DNA from: a virus | Lineage: Duplodnaviria > Heunggongvirae > Uroviricota > Caudoviricetes | Length of the DNA: 9,933 nt | Reading direction: 5' to 3' (one strand) | Virus record (IMG/VR): IMGVR_UViG_2634166457_000012 | Span: 1-9,933 of that record | Shown here: piece after piece, positions 1 to 9,933 of the stretch | Numbering within the stretch: the first letter of the stretch is position 1 | How the letters are laid out: each line of letters begins with the position of its first letter | Made by a program: the position numbers and the translations under genes | The notes under the pieces: model-generated | The model's database searches: none | What the model was told of the DNA's origin: nothing | What the model saw: the letters and a program-made list of their open reading frames with translations, nothing else

Positions 1-385
1 AAATTTGATCCAGTAAGCACGGTTTTGGCCTTTTCGCCATTCTGTTGGCTCGGTTATTAGCATCAACAGCTTTGTAATAGCGTCTGCCCCGATTACGCTG
101 AACTTCACGTGAGATCGTCGAAGGACTGCGATTCAGCGCAGTAGCTATCGCACGAATGCTCATTTTGGCTGACAAACCAGCTCGTATCTCCTCGCGCTCA
201 GACAGTGTCAGGTGAGCTACAGCCCGCTTACGCTCATGGGGTTTTATGCCGCCAGTATCCCTTAACATAGTGAAGATCGTTCCGGGTTTTGAACCCAGGA
301 TATTCGCTATTTCACTGAAGCCTGTTCCGTTCTTCCATAGTTCAAAAACAGAGGCTTTTTCCTCTGCTGTAAATGTTCGTCTCAT
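1..385 (-). CDS. insI: IS30 transposase, N-terminal ~128 codons (C-terminus outside window)
   Basis: Minus-strand ATG at 385..383 preceded by GGAGG. Translation begins MRRTFTAEEKASVFELWKNGTGFSEIANILGSKPGTIFTMLRDTGG..., the helix-turn-helix N-terminus of IS30 transposase. Not in the ORF track because the frame runs off the window edge. Confidence 0.85.
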   Translation of the reverse strand, partial: MRRTFTAEEKASVFELWKNGTGFSEIANILGSKPGTIFTMLRDTGGIKPHERKRAVAHLTLSEREEIRAGLSAKMSIRAIATALNRSPSTISREVQRNRGRRYYKAVDANNRANRMAKRPKPCLLDQI

Positions 386-447
386 TCAAAAAACCTCCGC
401 AACCCCATGTTTTCACATAACTGTTGCGTTGACCAATTGAATCTACA
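1..447 (-). mobile_element. IS30 insertion sequence, partial (terminal inverted repeat plus 5' part of transposase gene; remainder lies beyond the window start)
   Basis: Reverse complement of 447..421 reads TGTAGATTCAATTGGTCAACGCAACAG, which I recognise as the IS30 terminal inverted repeat. It is followed by a GGAGG RBS and the transposase ATG. The element ends exactly where the gpD-like reading frame is broken (447/448). Confidence 0.88.
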
Positions 448-714
448 AGTGCCTTTTTCTGTCAGCGGTTCTCCTTTCCAGCCAATGAGAACCGTCAGGC
501 GCGCGCCCCGTGGCGGTAGCTGCAACTGACCATCCGCATCATCCAGCGTGATGGTGAGCTGGTCCGCCTCAAATCCTCGGTTGTCGGTCAGTGACAGGCT
601 CATCAGGCGCTCTGCCACGCCTGACAGCGTTTTACCCTCCGCAAGAATATCAAAATCCGGCATTTTCACGGGGTCTGTGCCCTGACTGAGCAATTGCATG
701 GTTGTGTCGGTCAT
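448..714 (-). pseudogene. D: P2 gpD-like tail/baseplate hub protein (late control gene D family), 5' fragment of ~89 codons truncated by IS30
   Basis: Minus-strand ATG at 714..712 with AGGGAGG RBS 6 nt upstream. Translation MTDTTMQLLSQGTDPVKMPDFDILAEGKTLSGVAERLMSLSLTDNRGFEADQLTITLDDADGQLQLPPRGARLTVLIGWKG carries the LTDNRGFEADQL-I-LDD motif typical of the phage gpD N-terminus. The frame reads into the IS30 end and stops at a TGA overlapping the transposase ATG. The track ORF 382..846 is this frame, over-extended upstream and read through into IS30. Confidence 0.6.
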
Positions 715-871
715 CTGTTCCCTCCCTGTGCGGCATGGTCGCATGTGCGTGCGGAGGGGGTTACTGCTTTTTGTTGTCGCCGTGGCGGGAGAATAGCGCA
801 GGGGTGAGATTACGCGCGTGGTGGGTGATGATTGTTGCTGAATCATTTAACGGATACAAGGGGCTGAAGCT
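715..871. promoter_or_regulatory. Divergent intergenic region between gpD-like (minus) and sheath FI (plus); presumed to carry promoters for both
   Basis: 157-bp non-coding gap between two divergently oriented starts, each with a good RBS. No confident -35/-10 pair and no P2 Ogr-type TGT-N12-ACA dyad found by eye. Confidence 0.3.
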
Positions 872-2056: not shown

Positions 2057-2568
2057 TGGCTGTACCAAAACATCTTCGCTTTTTTACGTTGTTTGTGGAT
2101 GGTGAAAACGAAGTGGGTAAAGTGACATCCGTCACGCCGCCCAAACTGACGCGCAAAACCGACAGCTATCGTGGTGGTGGCATGATGGGGGCGGTAAGTA
2201 TTGATCTCGGTCTGGACGACTCCGCGCTTGATGCGAGTTTTGTCATGGGGGGAGCTGTTCGTGCGCTGTTCCTTAAATATGGTGGCACGATTGACGGCAC
2301 GCTGCTGCGTTTTGCGGGTGAATACTACACCGATGCAGAAAGCGATCTGTATGAAATCGAGATGCGTGGGCGTGTGACGGAAATTGATATGGGGGAAGCC
2401 AAACAGGGCGAAGCCACATCACACACTTACGCTGTCAAAAACACCTACTACAAGCTGAGCGTTAACGATCGCCCGCTGTGGGAAATCGACCTGTTGAACC
2501 ACATCTACCGGAAGGACGGCAAGGACATTGTGCCTGACCGTATCCGTTCCGCGCTTGGGCTTGGCTGA
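2056..2568 (+). CDS. FII: Tail tube protein (P2 gpFII family), 170 aa
   Basis: ATG 2056 overlaps the FI stop (TGATG) and is preceded by GGGAGGTG. Size matches P2 FII (~172 aa) and it sits directly after the sheath gene. Confidence 0.88.
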   Translation: MAVPKHLRFFTLFVDGENEVGKVTSVTPPKLTRKTDSYRGGGMMGAVSIDLGLDDSALDASFVMGGAVRALFLKYGGTIDGTLLRFAGEYYTDAESDLYEIEMRGRVTEIDMGEAKQGEATSHTYAVKNTYYKLSVNDRPLWEIDLLNHIYRKDGKDIVPDRIRSALGLG

Positions 2569-2623
2569 TAAGTAATATGCAGGCGGCGCAGTGCGTCGCC
2601 TCTGACTGAAAAGGAGACAACTG

Positions 2624-2998
2624 ATGAAAGACATCGATACTGAAACCCGGAATAACACCGTGGCGGATGATGTGACGGCAGGTGAGGATATGGCTGTCGA
2701 ACGTGGCGTAAAACTGACCCGACCAATTGAGCGTGGTGGCGAAAAAATCACGTATGTGGAGATCACCGGGGCTATTGAGCAGGCTGGATCCCTGCGTGGT
2801 CTGTCGCTGTCTGATGTGCTGAATCTGAAAGCGGATACCATGTTCACGCTGTTGCCTCGCGTGACCTCGCCACGACTGGATGAAGTGATGATTAAAAAAA
2901 TGTCGTCACGCGATTTTATTCAGTTGTGCGCTGTGGCTGTAAATTTTATGAGCGAGCCAGACTCTGGCGCGAAGAGCGTGCAGGAGACGGCAGCGTAA
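2624..2998 (+). CDS. E: Tail assembly chaperone (P2 gpE-like), 124 aa, zero-frame product
   Basis: ATG 2624 with AAGGAG RBS at 2611..2616. Small acidic protein between tube and tape measure. Its 3' part is overlapped by a -1 frame ORF that runs to 3162, the hallmark of the E/E' (lambda G/GT-like) chaperone pair. Confidence 0.78.
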   Translation: MKDIDTETRNNTVADDVTAGEDMAVERGVKLTRPIERGGEKITYVEITGAIEQAGSLRGLSLSDVLNLKADTMFTLLPRVTSPRLDEVMIKKMSSRDFIQLCAVAVNFMSEPDSGAKSVQETAA

Positions 2999-3162
2999 TC
3001 ACCCTGGTGTGCTTTGAGCACATCGAAGATCTGGTGGCGGATATTGCCGCCATTTTTAACTGGTCGCCCGCCGAAATCTTCATGATGACGCCCGGCGAAG
3101 TGGTTAGCTGGCGTGAGCGGGCGGCACTTCGCAGCGGGAATGCAGACAATGAAGACTCTTGA
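2624..3162 (+). CDS. Tail assembly chaperone frameshift product E+E' (programmed -1 frameshift, predicted ~179 aa)
   Basis: The -1 frame is open from 2896 (after TAA at 2893..2895) to TGA at 3160..3162 and overlaps the last ~100 nt of E. A heptamer fitting X_XXY_YYZ in the E frame lies at 2941..2947. The E' stop overlaps the start of T. Confidence 0.55.
2941..2947 (+). other. Candidate -1 slippery heptamer A_AAT_TTT for the E/E' frameshift
   Basis: E-frame codons AAT(2942..2944) and TTT(2945..2947) preceded by A2941. A small hairpin GCCAG-ACT-CTGGC (2956..2968) lies 8 nt downstream. An alternative site is the A7 run at 2894..2900 (T_AAA_AAA), which is non-canonical. Confidence 0.4.
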
Positions 3163-5956
3163 CATCCGGGTCGCTTTCAGCGCCGTTGACAGGCTGACCC
3201 GGCCTGCCGAAAACGCCCGCCGCCTGATGGGGCAGTTTGGTGACTCCATCCAGCGAACGCAGGGGGCGATCAAAAATCTCGAGCGTCAGGCGCGTTCATT
3301 TGAGCGCGCCCGTGACGCTGTCAGTAAAGCGGATGCTGGCGTATTGAAAGCACGACGCCAGCTTAACGCCCTTAATCAGTTACAACGCACGGGTACAGTG
3401 CTCAGCGAAAAACAACAAAAGCTGATGCAGCAGTTAAGCACCCGGCTTGAACGCCTGAATGAATCGCGCACACGGGAAATTCAGAAAATGCGGGAACTTG
3501 GCGGAGAGCTGAAACGCCACGGCATTTCCCTGACAGGCAGCGATAACACCATCCAGCAGGCCATCAGACGCACCGAACAGTACAACAACCAGCTTGAACG
3601 CGAACGGCAGGCGCTTGCGCGTGTAACGCGGGCGCGTGAGCGGTATTCGCGCGCGCAGGAAACAGAGGGAAAACTGAAAACAGGTGGTGCACTGGCAATT
3701 GGTGCGGCAGCGGCGGGCGGCTATGCTGCCGGGCGTTTTTTGCAGCCTGCGATCGGGTTCGGCAAAGAGATGTCCTGCGTTCAGGCACTGACGCGAATCG
3801 ACAAAAACAGCCCGCAGTTTAAGGCGCTGCGTGAGCAGGCGTTAAAACTTGGCTCTGAAACACAGTTTACTGCGAGTGATGCCGCCAGTGGGCAGAGCTT
3901 TCTGGCAATGGCTGGTTTTACTCCTCAGGCCATTCAGGCCGCATTGCCCGGTGTTCTTAATATGGCGCTGGCAGGTGGCGTCGAACTCGGCGAGACGGCT
4001 GATATAGGCTCCAATATCCTCACACAGTTCAACCTGACAGCCGATCAAATGGACCGGGTTGGCGATACGCTGACAGCAGCATTCACCCGGACCAATACTG
4101 ATTTACGCGCGCTGGGCGAAACCATGAAGTATACCGGTCCGGTTGCCGCAAAACTTGGTATCAGTCTTGAAGAAGCGGCGGCCATGGCCGGGATGCTTGC
4201 CAATAATGGTCTTCGCGGAAGCGATGCGGGTACGGCCATGCGCGCAAGTCTGTCCCGCCTTGCATCACCGCCAAAAGCTGCGGCTGATGCACTGAAAGAG
4301 CTGGGGGTGTCAGTTGCTGACGCCAGAGGCAAAATGCGCCCAATGGAGGATGTGCTGCTTGATCTCTATAAGGCGACACAAAAATACGGACAGGTGGACC
4401 AGGTCTCCTTCTTCAAGGACATCGCCGGAGAAGAGGCGTTCGTTGGTTTGCAGACGCTTGTTGCGGCGGCTGGTTCAGGAGAACTGCAAAAACTGACCAG
4501 AGAATTGCAGGGGGCAAGGGGAGAGGCCGATCGCGTTGCAAAAGTAATGGCCGATAATCTTGATGGGGACCTGAAAAATCTCGACAGCGCATGGGAAGGT
4601 CTTCGTATTCGCATCAGTGATCTGGTTGACGGTCCGCTGCGTTCTGTCACGCAGTGGCTCACGCGGGTGCTTGAAAAAATCACCTCGCTGGCGCAGGCCC
4701 ATCCGGTACTGACGCGCCAGCTACTGATAGCAGGCGGTGCGTTGCTGGCAATGACTGCAACGATTGGCTCGTTGTCGCTGGTTATTGGGGTGCTTTACGG
4801 GAAGCTGGCCACCCTGCGTCTTGGTTTTGACATTCTTACCCGGTCAATGAATGTCGTCAGGGTGTTGCCTGCGCTGTGGGGAATGGTGACGGGTTCCGTT
4901 TCTTTACTGGGGGGCGCTATCGGGGCGTTGTTCAGTCCGGTTGGTCTTATTGTGGCTGCGCTCGCCGGAGCTGCCGTTCTCATCTGGAAATACTGGGATC
5001 CCATCAGGGCATTTTTTGCCGGGGTGTTCAGCGGGATTATGGAAAGGCTGACCCCGTTGCGCGAAACCTTTGAACGGTTTGGTCCTGTTTTTGACGCAAT
5101 CGGAAGCGGGATCAGCCAGGTGTTTAACTGGTTTAAATCGCTGCTGTCACCGATGGAGTCCAGCAAGGAAACGCTGGATAAATGTACCAGTGCTGGCGAG
5201 ATATTCGGTAACGTTCTTGGCGGTGCGTTACAGCTTGTTCTGACACCTGCAAAAATGTTGCTGGATACGCTGGCGTGGATACTTGAAAAGCTCGGTGTGC
5301 TTCCGGATGAAGCGGAAAGGGCGCGCAAGAAAATCGAAGACGCACAGCGTGCGGCCATTCTTCAGGATAAGGTTGCCTTGCTTCAGGGGGACCTGGCGAA
5401 AATCAATCCGCCGAAGCCTGTGGAAAATGGCAATGGTACCGGAGGTGATAAGCCCAAAGACAACAAACCGCTCACAGACAGCAATACCGGTACGCTACGC
5501 AGACTCAGCAAAATTGCTGATAACACAGGTAAGCTGGTTGATGAGACGAAAAAACGCATTGGCCCCGGCGATATTGTCTTTAAGAACCTGCCCCGCGCAC
5601 TTGCTGTTCGTGGGGAGTGGCAGGAGCGGAAGATTGCGCAGGTCAGTAAGCCTGCCCCCGCAATTAATATCACACCCGTGGTTCCGGCTCCGCTGTCTCC
5701 AGCGCTGGTCCCTGTTGTTGCGGCCAGCTCCCGCCCGGTGGCGGAGGCCATACGATCGCCAGTGGCATCAGTTCCTGCAACTTCCCGTAACCGGGAGCCT
5801 GTTGCCTCCGGATTTGGCGGTGAAATTCATGTTCATCTGCATAACGTTGTTACGCAGAATCCCCGCGAACTGGCGAAACTGGTCGGTGAAATGGTCAGGG
5901 CAGAATTGGAACGACGCGACCGTGCCGGACGTGGCAGTTTTTACGATAAAGATTGA
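3149..5956 (+). CDS. T: Tail tape measure protein (P2 gpT-like), ~935 aa
   Basis: Long ORF directly after E/E'. N-terminal third is coiled-coil-like and rich in R/E/Q/L. The middle has Gly/Ala-rich hydrophobic segments (e.g. LLIAGGALLAMTATIGSLSLVIGVLYG and GAIGALFSPVGLIVAALAGAAVLIW) typical of tape measure proteins. Start chosen at ATG 3149 (GGGA ~9 nt upstream); in-frame alternatives are ATG 3140 and GTG 3113 (the track start). Confidence 0.85.
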   Translation: MKTLDIRVAFSAVDRLTRPAENARRLMGQFGDSIQRTQGAIKNLERQARSFERARDAVSKADAGVLKARRQLNALNQLQRTGTVLSEKQQKLMQQLSTRLERLNESRTREIQKMRELGGELKRHGISLTGSDNTIQQAIRRTEQYNNQLERERQALARVTRARERYSRAQETEGKLKTGGALAIGAAAAGGYAAGRFLQPAIGFGKEMSCVQALTRIDKNSPQFKALREQALKLGSETQFTASDAASGQSFLAMAGFTPQAIQAALPGVLNMALAGGVELGETADIGSNILTQFNLTADQMDRVGDTLTAAFTRTNTDLRALGETMKYTGPVAAKLGISLEEAAAMAGMLANNGLRGSDAGTAMRASLSRLASPPKAAADALKELGVSVADARGKMRPMEDVLLDLYKATQKYGQVDQVSFFKDIAGEEAFVGLQTLVAAAGSGELQKLTRELQGARGEADRVAKVMADNLDGDLKNLDSAWEGLRIRISDLVDGPLRSVTQWLTRVLEKITSLAQAHPVLTRQLLIAGGALLAMTATIGSLSLVIGVLYGKLATLRLGFDILTRSMNVVRVLPALWGMVTGSVSLLGGAIGALFSPVGLIVAALAGAAVLIWKYWDPIRAFFAGVFSGIMERLTPLRETFERFGPVFDAIGSGISQVFNWFKSLLSPMESSKETLDKCTSAGEIFGNVLGGALQLVLTPAKMLLDTLAWILEKLGVLPDEAERARKKIEDAQRAAILQDKVALLQGDLAKINPPKPVENGNGTGGDKPKDNKPLTDSNTGTLRRLSKIADNTGKLVDETKKRIGPGDIVFKNLPRALAVRGEWQERKIAQVSKPAPAINITPVVPAPLSPALVPVVAASSRPVAEAIRSPVASVPATSRNREPVASGFGGEIHVHLHNVVTQNPRELAKLVGEMVRAELERRDRAGRGSFYDKD

Positions 5957-5962
5957 GGAGTC

Positions 5963-6457
5963 ATGGCCATGATGATGATCTACGGCATGTTTGTTTTTGA
6001 GTTGCGCACGTTGCCGCATCAGCAGTTACAGCAAAACAAAAGCTGGCGACATGTGAAAAATGAACGCGTTAACCGTTCGGCAAGCTGGCAGTATATCGGT
6101 GCAGGTGATGATCGCATCGTTCTTTCGGGTGTTCTTTATCCTGAGATTACAGGTGGCGAAGTGTCGCTGTCGTTGTTGACCACGCAGGCATATACAGGAC
6201 GCCCCTGGCCTCTGATTGATGGCGTCGGGCAGATTTACGGCATGTATGTACTGACTGAAACGAATACGACCCGCTCCGAGTTTGATCGCTACGGTAAGGC
6301 GAAAAAGATAGAATTTTCACTGACTCTTGAACGCTGTGATGAGGATTTGCGGGAGCGCCTGCAATCCTCATCGTTCAGCGATATGTTGTCCGGCTTCAAA
6401 GATAAGGTGACATCATCCCTTAACAGCGCGGCCAGCTCAGTTAAGGGGCTGCTCTGA
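5963..6457 (+). CDS. U: Tail protein gpU-like (P2 U family), ~162-164 aa
   Basis: Follows the tape measure by 6 nt. Size matches P2 gpU (~159 aa). GAGGAG at 5955..5960 is best spaced for the in-frame ATGs at 5969/5972, so the true start may be 6-9 nt downstream of the track start 5963. Confidence 0.8.
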   Translation: MAMMMIYGMFVFELRTLPHQQLQQNKSWRHVKNERVNRSASWQYIGAGDDRIVLSGVLYPEITGGEVSLSLLTTQAYTGRPWPLIDGVGQIYGMYVLTETNTTRSEFDRYGKAKKIEFSLTLERCDEDLRERLQSSSFSDMLSGFKDKVTSSLNSAASSVKGLL

Positions 6458-6562: not shown

Positions 6563-6613
6563 CTCTTAACCTTATAACATGTGTGGTCTGAAATAATAAT
6601 TAAGGAGATTTTC

Positions 6614-7186
6614 GTGCTGTCTTACTTAATGGCAATTCACTTTGTTTTATTTGGGAACTCTACTAATTTAAAAAACTTCTGGAAACATGAAGTGATTCGG
6701 CGGAAACGTATGGATATCTGGAGGCTTTTAAGAGAGAAAAAGCAGCGTAACCGGAATTTCCTGTTCTGGTGGCGGTTGGCTAACGAAATGTATATTAATG
6801 GTAATAAATCACATAAGAAAGCAGCCAAAAAGTTAAACAGTAAAATAATTAACAAATTTGGTTGTGAAATAGGATTGGGAGCAAATATTGGAAAAGGGTT
6901 AACAATTCCCCATCATGCTGGAATTGTTGTTCATTTTGCTGTTGATGCGGGTGAAAATCTGGTATTACGACAGAATACTACCATTGGACAGATAGATGGT
7001 GACATGCCTGGTTCAAGAGTGAAAATTGGTAGTAACGTTGATATCGGAGCTAATTGTTGCATCATTGGATTATCACGTAAAATTGGGGATAATGTAAAAA
7101 TAGGTGCAATGTCTTTTATAAATAAAGATATACCATCAAACTGCACATATATAACTAAAAAGAGTGGTGTTGTATTGTATAAATAG
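6614..7186 (+). CDS. Hexapeptide-repeat (left-handed beta-helix) acetyltransferase, serine O-acetyltransferase (CysE/WcaB/NeuO-like) family; ~190 aa; AT-rich moron
   Basis: Translation contains the SAT-family signature GCEIGLGANIGKGLTIPHHAGIVVHFAVDAGENLVLRQNTTIG followed by further hexapeptide repeats (VKIGSNVDIGANCCIIG, KIGDNVKIGAMSFINKDIP). Start assigned to GTG 6614 because AAGGAG (6602..6607) lies 6 nt upstream; the track ATG 6581 has no RBS. Followed by a strong terminator. Confidence 0.72.
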   Translation: MLSYLMAIHFVLFGNSTNLKNFWKHEVIRRKRMDIWRLLREKKQRNRNFLFWWRLANEMYINGNKSHKKAAKKLNSKIINKFGCEIGLGANIGKGLTIPHHAGIVVHFAVDAGENLVLRQNTTIGQIDGDMPGSRVKIGSNVDIGANCCIIGLSRKIGDNVKIGAMSFINKDIPSNCTYITKKSGVVLYK

Positions 7187-7193
7187 AGTACAT

Positions 7194-7230
7194 AAAGCCA
7201 TCGATATTTCTGTCGATGGCTTTTTCTTTT
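7194..7230. terminator. Rho-independent terminator, shared by the convergent acetyltransferase (plus) and tfa (minus) transcripts
   Basis: Perfect stem AGCCATCGA (7196..7204) / TCGATGGCT (7213..7221) with 8-nt loop, then TTTTTCTTTT (7221..7230) on the plus strand. On the minus strand the same stem follows the tfa stop but has only a short U-tract (UUUAUG). Confidence 0.8.
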
Positions 7231-7808
7231 TATTGTGGGGCGACTGGCCACTCAACATCCGCTGCTACTGTTGTATCAACACGATTCAACAATACCCTAT
7301 ATGTCTTCCATGCAGCCAGTAACGATGCCTCTTCCTCCGTCGCAATATCCAAATCTACGGCATCCTGAAGTGGCGCAATATGCTCACTGGCTACCTGCAT
7401 CAGGCTGTTTTTTGTTTCTTCTGCCTCCCGTACCCGAAACAGTTTTTCTGCTTCTGCATCTTTCACCCAGGATGTGCCGTTCCACTTCTGACACTCTCCA
7501 TCCGGCGACAACCAGGTAACATTTTCCGGTAACGGACCGAGTTCAGAAATAAATAACGCGTCCCCTGATGCCACGTCATAAACCGTTTTACCCCGATGGT
7601 CTTCAACGAGATGCCACGATGCCTCATCACTGTTGAAAACAGCCACGAAGCCTGCCGGAATATCTGGTGGTGCAATATCGGTACTGTTTGCAGGCAGACC
7701 TGTATGAGGTGGAATGTATGCATCACCTTCCCCAATAAATTCATTAGTTCCGGCCAGCAGGTTATAAATTTTTATGGTCCGTGATTGTTCACTCATTCTG
7801 AAATCCAT
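7230..7808 (-). CDS. tfa: Tail fibre assembly protein (lambda Tfa / P2 gpG family), ~192 aa
   Basis: Translation ([97 protein letters not shown]...) is near-identical to phage lambda Tfa as I recall it. ATG 7808 with GAGGTG 5 nt upstream; the track start GTG 7814 is less likely. Confidence 0.9.
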
Positions 7809-7816
7809 GTTCACCT

Positions 7817-8719
7817 CTACTTAATATCAGAGACAGAATATTGTTTATTGAGCGTATGGGTGGGAGTACCAATAACGATGCTACTTCCGTGGCTATGTGC
7901 GCCAGAGGTGACATTACCTACGGGATTTTCTGGATTAATCCGGTGTATATGCGAACCAGGGCGAAAACGGTTATTAGCCTGATGTTGTATCAGTACATCA
8001 TCAGCCTGATGTTCAGGGTTAATACAGACTTGCCCGGAACGAGAGCAACACGTCCGATAATCGCCACATCCAATATATTTAGTATCCGCATAACGGCAAA
8101 CGGAATTACCCGGACAGTATGCATATGTGCCAAATACTGCCGACTGGCGAGATTGTGCGTATTCCCAGTTAATTGATTCTGTTTTTTTATTAAAGTTATC
8201 CCATGCCTGCTTCATCTGTCGGGCAACACTTTCAAACGGCACCTGACCACATCCGGCCCCCATTGCAGGGAATACCACTGTTTTTATTTTCATGTCTGTC
8301 GTTGCGTTTTTATTGTGTTGAAAGATGGCAAGCAGAGCGGCCCAGGTTGCGTTATATACAGCGTCTGTTCCGTCAATTGTCAACGGAACACGCATTGTTG
8401 GCGCATGTACCAGCCAGGGGTGATGATTATGCCCCGTTTCAATGACAAATGCAGAACCTACAGGCTGTTCGCCGAGATATTCACGAAGAATATGATTCTG
8501 AACGCGGGACTGTAACTGAGTACCGAAGAATGCGGTAATGGCGGCATCAACGCCACCATCCATCAAGCCGAAACTATTTGCCGCACTTACCATGCAGTCA
8601 AATTCTCTGATTGTTTCAAATGGCTTTCCGACAATATTCACACTATCTGCATTTGCAAATACCTGCTTAAATGCTTCAGCCATTTCTGTTACTGGTGCAG
8701 AAAGAATGAGCGTAATCAT
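7817..8719 (-). CDS. Macro-domain protein (predicted ADP-ribose-binding / ADP-ribosyl hydrolase) with Cys/His-rich C-terminal extension, 300 aa
   Basis: N-terminal ~180 aa carry macro-domain motifs in the correct order: [26 protein letters not shown] (compare VNAAN..L.GGGGVDGAIHRAAG), [25 protein letters not shown], and [22 protein letters not shown] (compare FPAISTGVYGYP). ATG 8719..8717 overlaps the stf stop (ATGA) with GAGG 5 nt upstream. Stop TAG 7819..7817 lies 8 nt before the tfa ATG. Coding call is strong; the functional call is from motif recognition only. Confidence 0.7.
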
Positions 8720-9933
8720 GCAAGCCTCACAATATAGTTAAATGCGATGTTTTTTACGGTGTTTTCTGCGTTACCCGTAGCGTTAACGGTGATGGTATGC
8801 CCGTGTGAACCTATCGCAACGGAGTGTGTGTGTGCGCCAATATTTACTGTGTGAGAGTGCCCCCCTGCGTTACTTGTTTTTCCAGTGCCAAGCCCTGAGT
8901 TATAACCAGCCGAAACACCATTACCAGCGCCAGTGTTGCCAACAGGAATATTGTGTGAATGATCCCCGGCGCTATTCGTGGTTTTAGTGCCATGGTTAAA
9001 TGAACTGGACGTCTTGGTGCCGTAGTCAAATGATGATGTGGTTTTTGTCCCCAAGTCCGTACTGGACGCGCTGGCACTGTGGGAGTGTGATTTAATGCCG
9101 TCCTGTTCCTGAGATAATACGGCCCGACCACTGGCGGGTTTGCCCTTAATCGTCCAGCCACGCATATCAGGGATCACACCAGACGGATAAGCGACTGCAA
9201 GCAGGGGGTAGACTGTTTTATCAAAAGTCTGCCCCTGCATAACGGTGTAGCCTGTAGGCACTGAATCAGAAGGCCACGGTATCGCCGCACCTACCGGAAA
9301 TGAATCTTGTGGCGTCCATGGTGTCCAGTCACCCGTTGAGTACTGGCTGCGGGTATAGCTTCTGGATGTGTCATACACATAGTAAATCTGTGTTATCCCG
9401 GCATTTTTAAGCACAACCAGTGTACCCGCAAAATTCTCCGGGTATTTCAGCGCTGCGCTTGTATTGGCATTCAATGGCTGATGGTACAGCCCCGGTGTTT
9501 TGTAATTATCCAGATTCTGATTTGCACCAATCTCAATACTCTGGCCGTTAAAAATATCCTGCGATGTAACATTGACATCATTGGCTAGTGATTTGCCATT
9601 AACCTTACGTCCAGAGGGCACACGCCCGTTTGCATTGTCATTAGCGGCTTTCACCGCTTTCGGAGTCGCGGCAAGCGTTTCAGAATCACTGTTAGTGACG
9701 CTACTGAGCTGGACTATTCCTTTTCGTGCCGTCGTGGCGTCCTGTGCGGTATATTTCCCGTTAGCAAGGTCATAGGCTGCCTTTACCGCCTTTGGTGTTG
9801 CCGCCAGCGTTTCTGAATCGCTGTTGGTGGCGCTACTGAGCTGGACTATTCCTTTTCGTGCCGTCGTGGCGTCCTGAGCGGTATATTTCCCGTTAGCAAG
9901 GTCATATGTTGCCTTTACCGCCTTTGGTGTTGC
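8716..9933 (-). CDS. stf: Side tail fibre protein (lambda Stf-like), C-terminal ~405 codons; N-terminus lies beyond the window end
   Basis: Frame is open to the window edge with no start codon. Contains 44-aa tandem repeats [34 protein letters not shown](A/V)TNSDSETLA characteristic of enterobacterial phage tail fibres. The His-rich C-terminus [28 protein letters not shown]...[11 protein letters not shown] matches the lambda Stf tip. The track ORF 8716..9654 is the same frame cut at an internal GTG. Confidence 0.9.
9655..9933 (-). repeat. Tandem direct repeats, period 132 bp (44 codons), at least 2 copies in window, within the stf coding region
   Basis: GCTACTGAGCTGGACTATTCC occurs at 9700 and again at 9832; GCCTTTACCGCCTTTGGTGTTGC at 9779 and 9911. 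Copies are near-identical over ~90 bp, and the copy nearest the C-terminal part is diverged at one end. Confidence 0.85.

What the first reader, a model, noticed from the sequence alone, without database searches (positions are those of the whole stretch)
2893..3162. Programmed -1 frameshift producing E+E' tail chaperone; candidate slippery site A_AAT_TTT with downstream hairpin
The -1 frame is open from 2896 to 3162, overlapping the end of E and terminating inside the start of T. This is the conserved arrangement of tail assembly chaperones (lambda G/GT, P2 E/E'). Only one X_XXY_YYZ heptamer lies in the overlap (2941..2947), with a small GC hairpin 8 nt downstream. An A7 tract at 2894..2900 is an alternative slippage site (ribosomal or transcriptional).
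Basis: partly seen in the sequence, partly recalled or inferred. Interest (0 to 1): 0.45.

Follow-up and report, generated by a model that had tools for sequence, protein, structure and literature searches.

The report
P2-type tail chaperone frameshift, shifted site
This is the well-known programmed -1 ribosomal frameshift that makes the E and E+E' tail-assembly chaperones of P2-like phages, here in a common E. coli prophage lineage whose usual slippery sequence T_TTT_TTG is broken and replaced by an overlapping A_AAT_TTT one codon upstream.

Summary
The -1 frame is open from 2896 to 3162.

The window is a Xuanwuvirus (P88-like, Peduoviridae) tail operon: sheath, tube, E, E', tape measure, U. 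The -1 ORF carries the Pfam Phage_P2_GpE domain. The predicted fusion aligns collinearly with P2 E+E' (BLASTP 1e-28), junction on junction.

In 160 homologous loci the shift site maps to one spot. There, 124 loci have T_TTT_TTN, mostly P2's T_TTT_TTG. The two exceptions are this lineage (A_AAT_TTT_ATG) and Reipivirus (C_CCT_TTC_TTG). Both keep a perfect heptamer 3 nt upstream, of the H_HH.U_UU.Y class that ranks among the most efficient in E. coli.

Purifying selection switches from frame 0 to frame -1 exactly at this site.

The A7 alternative is rejected: the -1 frame has a stop between A7 and the heptamer in every TTG-type relative and in 4 of 60 ATG-type relatives. The hairpin is weak, is absent from P88, and no downstream structure is conserved.

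This is a new member of a known kind with a relocated heptamer, and databases do not annotate the frameshift. Interest is modest.

The parts
2624..2998 (+). Gene E, the tail assembly chaperone made by normal frame-0 translation (124 aa).
   Evidence: ORF. PHROG 103 'tail protein' 1e-36. Pfam Phage_TAC_7 scores 20.6 bits, below the cut-off of 25. It aligns to P2 gpE and lies between tube gene FII (2056-2568) and tape measure T.
2941..2947 (+). Slippery heptamer A_AAT_TTT. Asn AAT sits in the P site and Phe TTT in the A site, and both tRNAs can re-pair one base back.
   Evidence: It is the only in-frame X_XXY_YYZ in E. It sits on the conserved V-x-F-L junction of homologues. GTA AAT TTT is invariant in all 60 ATG-type IMG/VR loci. 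The H_HH.U_UU.Y / R_RR.U_UU.Y heptamers are frameshift-prone in E. coli (PMC4066793).
2944..2950 (+). Position homologous to the P2 heptamer T_TTT_TTG. Here it reads T_TTT_ATG and is degenerate because of a T-to-A change at 2948.
   Evidence: The P2 record marks the shift at T_TTT_TTG. P88, Chuche and Novemvirus have T_TTT_TTG at the aligned position.
2947..3162 (+). The E' part as actually translated, in the -1 frame from the shift to TGA. The E+E' fusion is 2624-2947 joined to 2947-3162: 179 aa with junction ...AVAVNF/YERARLW...
   Evidence: Translation. Pfam Phage_P2_GpE 2.9e-12 and PHROG 1756 4.8e-42. Substitutions are biased to synonymous in frame -1 from the site onward. The -1 motif W..ER.GDG upstream of the E stop is conserved across genera.
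2896..2946 (+). The upstream stretch of the open -1 frame. It is probably open by chance and not translated in that frame.
   Evidence: Window versus P88 in this stretch gives 7 synonymous / 2 non-synonymous changes in frame 0, and 0 / 10 in frame -1. A TGA lies in this stretch in all TTG-type relatives and in 4 of 60 ATG-type relatives.
2894..2900 (+). A7 tract (ATT AAA AAA ATG). It was considered and rejected as the shift site.
   Evidence: It is followed by a -1-frame stop in relatives, absent from L116/L117, L120/L124 and L118, and A6 in two loci. Its product would replace the conserved DFIQL...VNF segment of E.
2956..2968 (+). Small hairpin GCCAG-ACT-CTGGC, 8 nt 3' of the heptamer. It is present, but there is no evidence that it acts as a stimulator.
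   Evidence: Its energy is -5.5 kcal/mol alone and -9.3 with flanking pairs, against -2.3 for the P88 equivalent. RNAalifold finds 0 conserved pairs. The ATG variant also occurs on P88-type flanks without it (L204, L285).
3007..3162 (+). The ORF that public records annotate as a separate gene ('GpE family phage tail protein', 51 aa from GTG). It is really the C-terminal part of E+E'.
   Evidence: Annotations. No Shine-Dalgarno motif precedes it. The GTG is absent from the Reipivirus, Novemvirus and P2 sequences. Conservation in the -1 frame extends upstream of it.
3149..5956 (+). Tape measure gene T. Its start overlaps the end of E' by 14 nt.
   Evidence: Pfam PhageMin_Tail 1.6e-56. The start at ATG 3149 follows the homologous records.

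Best explanation
Gene E and the overlapping -1 ORF E' encode the two tail assembly chaperones of a P2-like (Xuanwuvirus) phage.

Most ribosomes read E to its stop at 2998. A minority slip one base back at A_AAU_UUU (2941-2947). At that moment tRNA-Asn is on AAU in the P site and tRNA-Phe is on UUU in the A site. They re-pair to AAA and UUU, and translation continues in the -1 frame from UAU at 2947. The result is a 179-aa E+E' fusion (...AVAVNF-YERARLW...GNADNEDS) that ends inside the start of the tape-measure gene.

By analogy with P2 E/E+E' and lambda G/GT, the shared E part binds the tape measure. The E' part recruits the tube protein. A fixed low ratio of fusion to E is needed to build the tail.

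What is shown: the homology, the position of the frame switch, the heptamer and its conservation. What is inferred: that slippage really occurs, its efficiency, and which tRNA pair slips.

The ancestral site T_TTT_TTG was lost here through TTG to ATG. This appears tolerable because the P88-type ancestor already carried the double site A_AAT_TTT_TTG.
For: 1. Gene context is sheath-tube-E-E'-T-U, and the -1 frame carries Phage_P2_GpE at 2.9e-12.
2. The fusion built at this site aligns collinearly with P2 E+E' (BLASTP 1e-28, 33% identity). VNF-Y lies on P2's VGF-L junction. The P2 record marks its experimentally established shift at T_TTT_TTG.
3. Among 160 homologous loci from 185k genomes and IMG/VR, 124 have T_TTT_TTN at this codon pair. 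The only exceptions are the window type A_AAT_TTT_ATG (15 loci) and Reipivirus C_CCT_TTC_TTG (21 loci). Both keep a perfect heptamer 3 nt upstream.
4. Some homologues bracket the site tightly. L116/L117 have a -1-frame TAA abutting the heptamer, and L081 has only 13 nt of overlap.
5. Window versus P88 codon changes, synonymous/non-synonymous: from A7 to the site, frame 0 gives 7/2 and frame -1 gives 0/10. From the site to the E stop, frame 0 gives 1/7 and frame -1 gives 6/3. Five-lineage sums behave the same way.
6. E. coli reporter data list H_HH.U_UU.Y among the most efficient heptamers and single out R_RR.U_UU.Y as frameshift-prone (PMC4066793).
7. GTA AAT TTT is invariant in all 60 ATG-type loci, while neighbouring wobble positions vary.
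8. PhiSM has the identical site in a 99.4%-identical region and is a plaque-forming phage (PMC6456863). The exact 86-nt segment occurs in 513 complete E. coli genome records.
Against: - There is no direct evidence (protein, reporter or ribosome profiling) for this lineage.
- A single in-frame heptamer in the overlap is expected by chance about 10% of the time.
- No stimulatory element was found: there is no conserved downstream structure and no upstream Shine-Dalgarno-like motif. Efficiency is therefore unknown.
- The case for 'loss of the canonical heptamer only where an upstream heptamer exists' rests on just two lineages.
- Diversity within the ATG-type group is low, so the invariance of the heptamer is weak evidence.
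- P-site slippage of tRNA-Phe in the old register would give the same protein and cannot be told apart by sequence.
Confidence: 0.75

Rival explanations
1. The frameshift and the product are the same, but the register is the ancestral one. tRNA-Phe, already in the P site on UUU (2945-2947), slips back to 2944-2946 while the A site holds or awaits AUG. This would be single-tRNA slippage on the degenerate T_TTT_ATG, with the upstream A_AA playing no part.
For: In 124 of 160 homologues the P-site codon of the conserved heptamer is this same TTT. U_UU.U is itself one of the more shift-prone tetramers in E. coli. The protein outcome is identical.
Against: Both lineages that lost the canonical A-site codon keep a perfect heptamer in the upstream register. 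Only about 15% of the site contexts with an intact canonical heptamer also have that upstream heptamer. In Reipivirus the corresponding tetramer is T_TTC followed by TTG. The GTA wobble base A is invariant in 60 of 60 ATG-type loci. Tetramers alone were barely above background without a strong pseudoknot.
Confidence: 0.12
2. E' is translated on its own from the internal GTG at 3007, as public annotations imply (a 51-aa 'GpE family phage tail protein'). No frameshift would occur.
For: PGAP and several phage records annotate it this way. The GTG is conserved within Xuanwuvirus.
Against: No Shine-Dalgarno motif lies 5-13 nt upstream. The -1 frame is conserved, with synonymous bias, for about 20 codons upstream of this GTG and back to the heptamer. 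That position is not a start codon in Reipivirus (GCG), Novemvirus (CGG) or P2. PHROG 1756 matches from residue 12 of the -1 ORF, well upstream of the GTG. In P2 the reading frame was shown to be expressed as a fusion (record note; PMC3091744).
Confidence: 0.05
3. The shift happens at the A7 tract (2894-2900). Either tRNA-Lys slips, or RNA polymerase stutters and adds an A. The result is an alternative 179-aa fusion, ...MIKK-NVVTRFYSVVRCGCKF-YERARLW...
For: In the window the -1 frame opens exactly at the A7. tRNA-Lys on A-runs is notoriously slippery, and A7 runs are under-represented in E. coli genes, possibly because of slippage.
Against: All 57 TTG-type and 4 of 60 ATG-type relatives have a TGA in the -1 frame between A7 and the heptamer. 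More distant relatives that keep the E/E' arrangement have no A7. This stretch evolves under frame-0 constraint only: 7/2 against 0/10. In register the heptamer would be T_AAA_AAA, which is not X_XXY_YYZ. The product would replace the conserved DF(I/V)xL...VxF segment of E.
Confidence: 0.03
4. The TTG-to-ATG change has crippled frameshifting. In this lineage E' is made poorly or not at all, as in decaying prophages or where another prophage supplies the function.
For: The canonical heptamer, conserved in 124 of 160 loci, is broken. Many copies are resident prophages in E. coli chromosomes.
Against: PhiSM carries the same site and is released as a plaque-forming phage. The variant is identical in 513 genome records and in several records named as phages. 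E' remains intact with synonymous-biased change. A_AAU_UUU belongs to an efficient heptamer class.
Confidence: 0.05

Closest known systems
Bacteriophage P2 E / E+E' programmed -1 frameshift (Christie et al. 2002, J Bacteriol 184:6522; P2 record NC_001895)
   Same: The gene order is the same (FI, FII, E, E', T, U). The proteins are homologous (BLASTP 1e-28, E' has Pfam Phage_P2_GpE). E' is in the -1 frame, overlaps the 3' end of E and ends inside the start of T. The junction falls at the same aligned residue (V-x-F | L/Y). No conserved downstream structure is seen, as also reported for P2 and the Burkholderia P2-like phages (PMC3091744).
   Different: The heptamer is A_AAT_TTT, one codon upstream of P2's T_TTT_TTG, which here reads T_TTT_ATG. 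E is longer (124 aa against 91) and the fusion is 179 aa against 142, with a longer overlap of about 50 nt after the site against about 20. gpD lies on the opposite strand upstream instead of following U. The roughly 10% frameshift frequency for P2 is recalled from that paper's abstract. The paper was not readable here.
Phage P88 and other TTG-type Xuanwuvirus, plus Reipivirus (Klebsiella ST16-OXA48phi5.4)
   Same: P88 is about 86% identical across the region and has the same E/E' layout. It carries the double site A_AAT_TTT_TTG, which includes the window's heptamer. Reipivirus shows the parallel case: its canonical site is broken (T_TTC_TTG) and a perfect C_CCT_TTC lies one codon upstream.
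   Different: P88 retains the canonical T_TTT_TTG, lacks the small hairpin, and has a -1 stop between A7 and the site. The Reipivirus heptamer uses Pro/Phe rather than Asn/Phe.
Lambda G/GT and the general tail-assembly-chaperone frameshift of tailed phages (Levin 1993; Xu, Hendrix and Duda 2004, 2013, 2014)
   Same: Two proteins share an N-terminus and are made in a fixed ratio by a -1 slip on a heptamer. The genes lie between the major tail (tube) gene and the tape measure gene. Neither product is expected in the virion.
   Different: There is no detectable sequence similarity. Lambda uses G_GGA_AAG.
IS3/IS911 and dnaX -1 frameshift signals in E. coli
   Same: All use tandem tRNA slippage on an X_XXY_YYZ heptamer, decoded by the same host ribosomes and tRNAs.
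   Different: Those signals combine the heptamer with a strong stimulator, either a pseudoknot or stem-loop or an upstream Shine-Dalgarno-like element. None is evident here.

Membership tests
P2-type E / E+E' tail assembly chaperone pair | The two reading frames lie between the tail tube gene and the tape measure gene. | tested here: met
   FII tube 2056-2568 (PF04985, 2.1e-45), E 2624-2998, E' to 3162, T from 3149 (PF10145, 1.6e-56)..
P2-type E / E+E' tail assembly chaperone pair | The upstream protein is homologous to gpE (Pfam Phage_TAC_7). | tested here: met
   The Pfam hit is below the gathering score (20.6 against 25 bits, E 4.7e-4). However, PHROG 103 scores 1e-36, and BLASTP of the fusion to P2 E+E' gives 1e-28 and covers the E part.
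P2-type E / E+E' tail assembly chaperone pair | The downstream frame carries the GpE domain (Pfam PF06528). | tested here: met
   46.3 bits against a cut-off of 23, E 2.9e-12, residues 47-82 of the -1 ORF.
P2-type E / E+E' tail assembly chaperone pair | E' is in the -1 frame relative to E, overlaps its 3' end, and has no conserved start codon or ribosome-binding site of its own. | tested here: met
   The -1 frame is conserved upstream of the annotated GTG, and no Shine-Dalgarno motif is present.
P2-type E / E+E' tail assembly chaperone pair | The slippery sequence T_TTT_TTG lies at the conserved V-x-F-L codons. | tested here: not met
   The window reads T_TTT_ATG at 2944-2950. The overlapping A_AAT_TTT at 2941-2947 takes its place. 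This is a difference in the signal, not in the homology of the proteins.
P2-type E / E+E' tail assembly chaperone pair | The fusion protein is actually produced at a low fixed frequency and is essential for tail assembly. | not testable with these tools
   There is only indirect support. Selection acts on the -1 frame from the site onward, and phiSM with the same site is viable.
Canonical -1 programmed ribosomal frameshift signal | An in-frame X_XXY_YYZ heptamer allows both tRNAs to re-pair in the -1 frame. | tested here: met
   A_AAT_TTT at 2941-2947 in the correct register. It belongs to the class H_HH.U_UU.Y, reported as efficient in E. coli.
Canonical -1 programmed ribosomal frameshift signal | A stimulatory RNA structure lies 5-9 nt downstream, or a Shine-Dalgarno-like element lies upstream. 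| tested here: inconclusive
   A 5-bp hairpin exists 8 nt downstream (-5.5 to -9.3 kcal/mol). The 83-nt fold has z = -2.09. The hairpin is absent in P88, absent from ATG-type loci L204 and L285, and no pairs are conserved. The mean z over 103 homologues is -0.17. P2-type sites are reported to lack such structures.
Transcriptional (RNA polymerase) slippage at a homopolymer | A long A or T run sits at the point where the alternative frame opens, and that frame stays open downstream in relatives. | tested here: not met
   A7 is present at 2894-2900. The -1 frame is closed by TGA before the heptamer in 57 of 57 TTG-type and 4 of 60 ATG-type relatives. At the real site the window has only A3T4, so polymerase stuttering there is unlikely.

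The most novel reading that the evidence does not exclude
The shift site has hopped one codon, and this happened twice independently: in Xuanwuvirus from T_TTT_TTG to A_AAT_TTT, and in Reipivirus to C_CCT_TTC. Each hop passed through a permissive double-heptamer intermediate, as P88 and Novemvirus still show. The new sites replace the T6 run with a mixed run. The T6 run is visibly prone to DNA-level indels (T7 and T8 variants in L103 and L119). The new sites may therefore have been selected because they cut homopolymer mutability or retune the E:E+E' ratio. This would make the pair P88 and window-type phage a natural system for measuring how heptamer identity sets chaperone stoichiometry.
Probability: 0.35. 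Interest if true: 0.4.

Novelty: new member of a known kind. Interest (0 to 1): 0.25.

Why it matters
There are three practical consequences.

1. About a quarter of complete E. coli genomes (1374 of 5426) carry this prophage family. RefSeq/PGAP and the phage records annotate E' as a free-standing 51-aa gene instead of a frameshift fusion, so the real 179-aa product is missing from the protein databases.

2. About 10% of complete E. coli genomes carry the variant in which P2's textbook heptamer is broken. Annotation pipelines that search for TTTTTTG will miss it.

3. The co-existence of TTG-type and ATG-type alleles in otherwise near-identical phages, including the culturable P88 and phiSM, gives a cheap natural experiment on which heptamer is used and how much frameshifting tail assembly needs.

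It does not change what is understood about tail assembly chaperones.

Tried and rejected
- **Primary P2 paper.** Christie et al. 2002 (PMC135442) is not held. P2 facts come from the GenBank record and from PMC3091744. The roughly 10% efficiency is from my memory of the abstract.
- **NCBIfam.** It gave no hit for E, E' or the fusion.
- **Downstream stimulator.** RNAalifold on 9 diverse homologues returned no pairs. MFE z-scores over 103 unique homologues centre on zero. I rejected this as a conserved stimulator.
- **Upstream Shine-Dalgarno-like stimulator.** Reading 2920-2940 shows none.
- **A7 tract.** I rejected it as the shift site.
- **Independent start at GTG 2926 in the -1 frame** (listed by the ORF listing). 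I rejected it because no Shine-Dalgarno motif precedes it. In L116/L117 a TAA follows it before the heptamer, and in L118 there is no start codon in that stretch.
- **Mis-parsed loci.** My automatic parser failed on nine loci. On inspection:
  - L063 and L076 are ordinary sites.
  - L041 and L013 are truncated or decayed.
  - L010, L012 and L090 carry indels, either pseudogenes or sequencing errors.
  - L103 and L119 have T7 and T8 runs.
  - None shows a different shift site.
- **Literature on Xuanwuvirus.** The search found nothing about this frameshift.
- **Failed script.** A first regular expression for the -1-stop survey used the wrong spacing and returned nothing. It was corrected.
Full report
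**What is in the window**

The 9.9-kb window is the tail-gene region of a P88-like temperate phage (genus Xuanwuvirus, family Peduoviridae). The stretch 2500-3300 is 99.5% identical to Escherichia virus P88_4B11, 99.4% to Citrobacter phage Shae_phiSM and about 86% to phage P88.

The ORFs and Pfam hits give this order:
- sheath FI, 872-2056;
- tube FII, 2056-2568;
- E, 2624-2998;
- the overlapping -1 ORF, open 2896-3162;
- tape measure T, with its start at ATG 3149 in homologous records;
- gpU, 5963-6457.

**Checking the observation**

- In the -1 frame, TAA at 2893-2895 is followed by 88 open codons to TGA at 3160-3162.
- A_AAT_TTT at 2941-2947 is in the proper register (GT-A AAT TTT) and is the only in-frame X_XXY_YYZ heptamer in E.
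- The A7 tract is at 2894-2900.
- The hairpin GCCAG/CTGGC is at 2956-2968, 8 nt after the heptamer.

On its own, one heptamer in a 34-codon overlap is not remarkable. The expectation is 0.11, and 9.3% of codon shuffles gave at least one. The significance comes from homology.

**What it is**

The -1 frame carries the Pfam Phage_P2_GpE domain (2.9e-12, above the cut-off) and PHROG 1756 (4.8e-42). E matches PHROG 103 (1e-36) and, weakly, Phage_TAC_7.

A fusion protein built by shifting at the heptamer aligns collinearly with P2 E+E' (BLASTP 1e-28, 33% identity). It also aligns with the equivalent fusions of P88, a Klebsiella Reipivirus and an Enterobacter Novemvirus. In that alignment the window's junction V-N-F|Y lies exactly on P2's V-G-F|L.

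The P2 GenBank record annotates E+E' as a joined CDS with the -1 shift at T_TTT_TTG. PMC3091744 summarises the experimental work: the shift occurs at TTTTTTG, E is 91 aa, E+E' is 142 aa, and there is no downstream structure.

**Where the shift occurs: comparative evidence**

I collected 160 parseable homologous loci from one-genome-per-species bacterial contigs and IMG/VR. I then located the frame overlap and the conserved F-codon in each.
- 124 loci have T_TTT_TTN there, overwhelmingly T_TTT_TTG, with a few TTA, TTC or TTT.
- Only two site classes differ. The window type, A_AAT_TTT_ATG, has 15 loci in a single sequence context. Reipivirus, C_CCT_TTC_TTG, has 21 loci.
- In both exceptions the canonical heptamer is broken but a perfect heptamer sits one codon upstream.
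- Their nearest relatives carry both sites at once: P88 has A_AAT_TTT_TTG and Novemvirus has C_CCT_TTT_TTG. The canonical site therefore seems to have been lost only where a second heptamer was already present.
- Only about 15% of the contexts with an intact canonical site have such an upstream heptamer. The coincidence is suggestive, but it rests on two events.
- Some homologues bracket the site very tightly. L116/L117 have a -1-frame TAA abutting the heptamer, and L081 has only 13 nt of overlap.

**Selection signature**

A gap-free alignment of five Xuanwuvirus-like lineages shows the coding constraint switching frames at the site. For window versus P88, codon changes counted as synonymous/non-synonymous are:

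| Segment | Frame 0 | Frame -1 |
|---|---|---|
| A7 to the site | 7/2 | 0/10 |
| Site to the E stop | 1/7 | 6/3 |

The sums over all ten lineage pairs behave the same way: frame 0 gives 37/67 then 9/100, and frame -1 gives 10/98 then 40/59. So the -1 frame is read from the heptamer onward and not before it.

**The A7 alternative**

The A7 tract encodes Lys-Lys and is specific to the window and P88 groups.
- In a pattern-based survey of 119 IMG/VR loci, all 57 TTG-type loci have a TGA in the -1 frame between A7 and the heptamer. So do 4 of the 60 ATG-type loci (L204 and the L222 group).
- The window merely lost that stop through a synonymous CGT-to-CGC change.
- In register the tract is T_AAA_AAA, which is not a proper heptamer.
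- Its product would overwrite the conserved DF(I/V)xL...VxF end of E.

I regard A7 as rejected, apart from possible trace by-products.

**The hairpin and other stimulators**

The small hairpin is real but weak: -5.5 kcal/mol alone and -9.3 with flanking pairs.
- The 83-nt downstream fold has z = -2.09 and uses a different pairing.
- P88 lacks the hairpin (-2.3 kcal/mol).
- ATG-type alleles also exist on P88-type flanks without it (L204, L285).
- RNAalifold finds no conserved pair in nine diverse homologues.
- The mean z over 103 unique homologous segments is -0.17.
- No Shine-Dalgarno-like element precedes the site.

This matches the reported absence of structures at P2-type sites.

**Mechanism**

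The best reading is tandem slippage on A_AAU_UUU. tRNA-Asn moves from AAU to AAA in the P site, and tRNA-Phe moves from UUU to UUU in the A site. The next codon read is UAU, which gives ...AVAVNF-YERARLW...

The systematic E. coli study of all 64 heptamers lists H_HH.U_UU.Y among the most efficient. It singles out R_RR.U_UU.Y as frameshift-prone because of the shiftiness of UUY, and names C_CC.U_UU.C as a high-level shifter (PMC4066793). So both replacement heptamers are good ones for this host.

A single-tRNA slip of tRNA-Phe in the ancestral register would give the same protein and cannot be excluded. I give it about 0.12.

Polymerase stuttering is unlikely at A3T4. This lineage is therefore a natural argument that the event is ribosomal.

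**Rival: independent initiation**

Public records annotate a separate 51-aa 'GpE family' ORF from GTG 3007. Several points count against it.
- There is no ribosome-binding site.
- That GTG is not conserved outside Xuanwuvirus.
- The -1 frame is conserved, with synonymous bias, for about 20 codons upstream of it, including a W..ER.GDG motif shared across genera.

**Is the variant functional?**

The exact 86-nt segment around the site occurs in 513 complete E. coli genome records, out of 1374 genomes that carry this E/E' region. PhiSM of Citrobacter rodentium has the identical site and was shown to be spontaneously released and plaque-forming (PMC6456863). A crippled frameshift is therefore unlikely.

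**Comparison and novelty**

This is a homologue of the P2 E/E+E' system and an analogue of lambda G/GT. It meets the family's architectural and sequence criteria. The exception is the literal T_TTT_TTG heptamer, which is replaced by an overlapping one. Different heptamers among phage chaperone frameshifts are well known, so I class it as a new member of a known kind.

The modest points of interest are three:
- the one-codon relocation of the site in two lineages;
- the missing annotation in RefSeq;
- the availability of natural TTG and ATG allele pairs for experiments.

**Limits**

Nothing here measures frameshifting. Efficiency, the identity of the slipping tRNAs and any role of the hairpin are inferences. 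The P2 frequency of about 10% is from my memory of Christie et al. 2002, which I could not open.

Noticed in passing
window 3084-3117: A 34-nt stretch inside E' matches, at 100%, a sequence inside an annotated CRISPR array of E. coli strain GmM066 (NZ_CM183652.1). This is presumably a spacer acquired from this phage family.
   Followed up: partly
window 7817-8719 (minus strand): A 300-aa Macro-domain protein (PF01661, 9.6e-19) lies between the tail-fibre gene (8716-9654, Collar domain) and the tail-fibre assembly gene (7230-7814, Caudo_TAP). It looks like a cargo or moron gene in an unusual place. Macro domains bind or remove ADP-ribose, so an anti-defence role is conceivable.
   Followed up: partly
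window 6581-7186 (+): A hexapeptide-repeat transferase-like ORF (weak Pfam Hexapep hit) follows gpU. In the prophage of E. coli 2014C-3075 a recombinase (invertase) gene and tail-fibre segments sit there instead. This end of the tail module is variable.
   Followed up: no
window 382-846 (minus strand): An N-terminal gpD-like (VgrG/Pvc8 family) coding sequence lies on the strand opposite the sheath gene. In this genus gene D is therefore not at the end of an FETUD operon as in P2. The same layout is seen in E. coli 2014C-3075.
   Followed up: partly
window 3736-3742: An in-frame T_TTT_TTG heptamer, identical to P2's slippery sequence, lies inside the tape-measure gene. Five other in-frame heptamers occur in FI, FII, E and T. 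It is probably chance. The -1 frame there was not examined.
   Followed up: no
L103 around 1772-1780; L119 around 1742-1751; L118 around 1772-1779: Three near-identical IMG/VR loci differ only in the length of the T run at the slippery site. T6 gives normal E/E', T7 gives E and E' fused in one frame, and T8 makes E stop right after FF. These are either homopolymer sequencing errors or real indel variants at the canonical site. The window's A3T4 site would be less prone to this.
   Followed up: partly
L204 and L285 (IMG/VR): The ATG variant of the site also occurs on otherwise P88-type flanking sequence, both upstream and downstream. This indicates either a second independent TTG-to-ATG mutation or a very short gene-conversion tract.
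   Followed up: partly
L010, L012, L013 (Symbiopectobacterium genomes): The E/E' regions of these symbiont genomes carry frame-disrupting indels. L010 reads as one fused frame and the others have stops, consistent with decaying prophages in genomes that are rich in pseudogenes.
   Followed up: no
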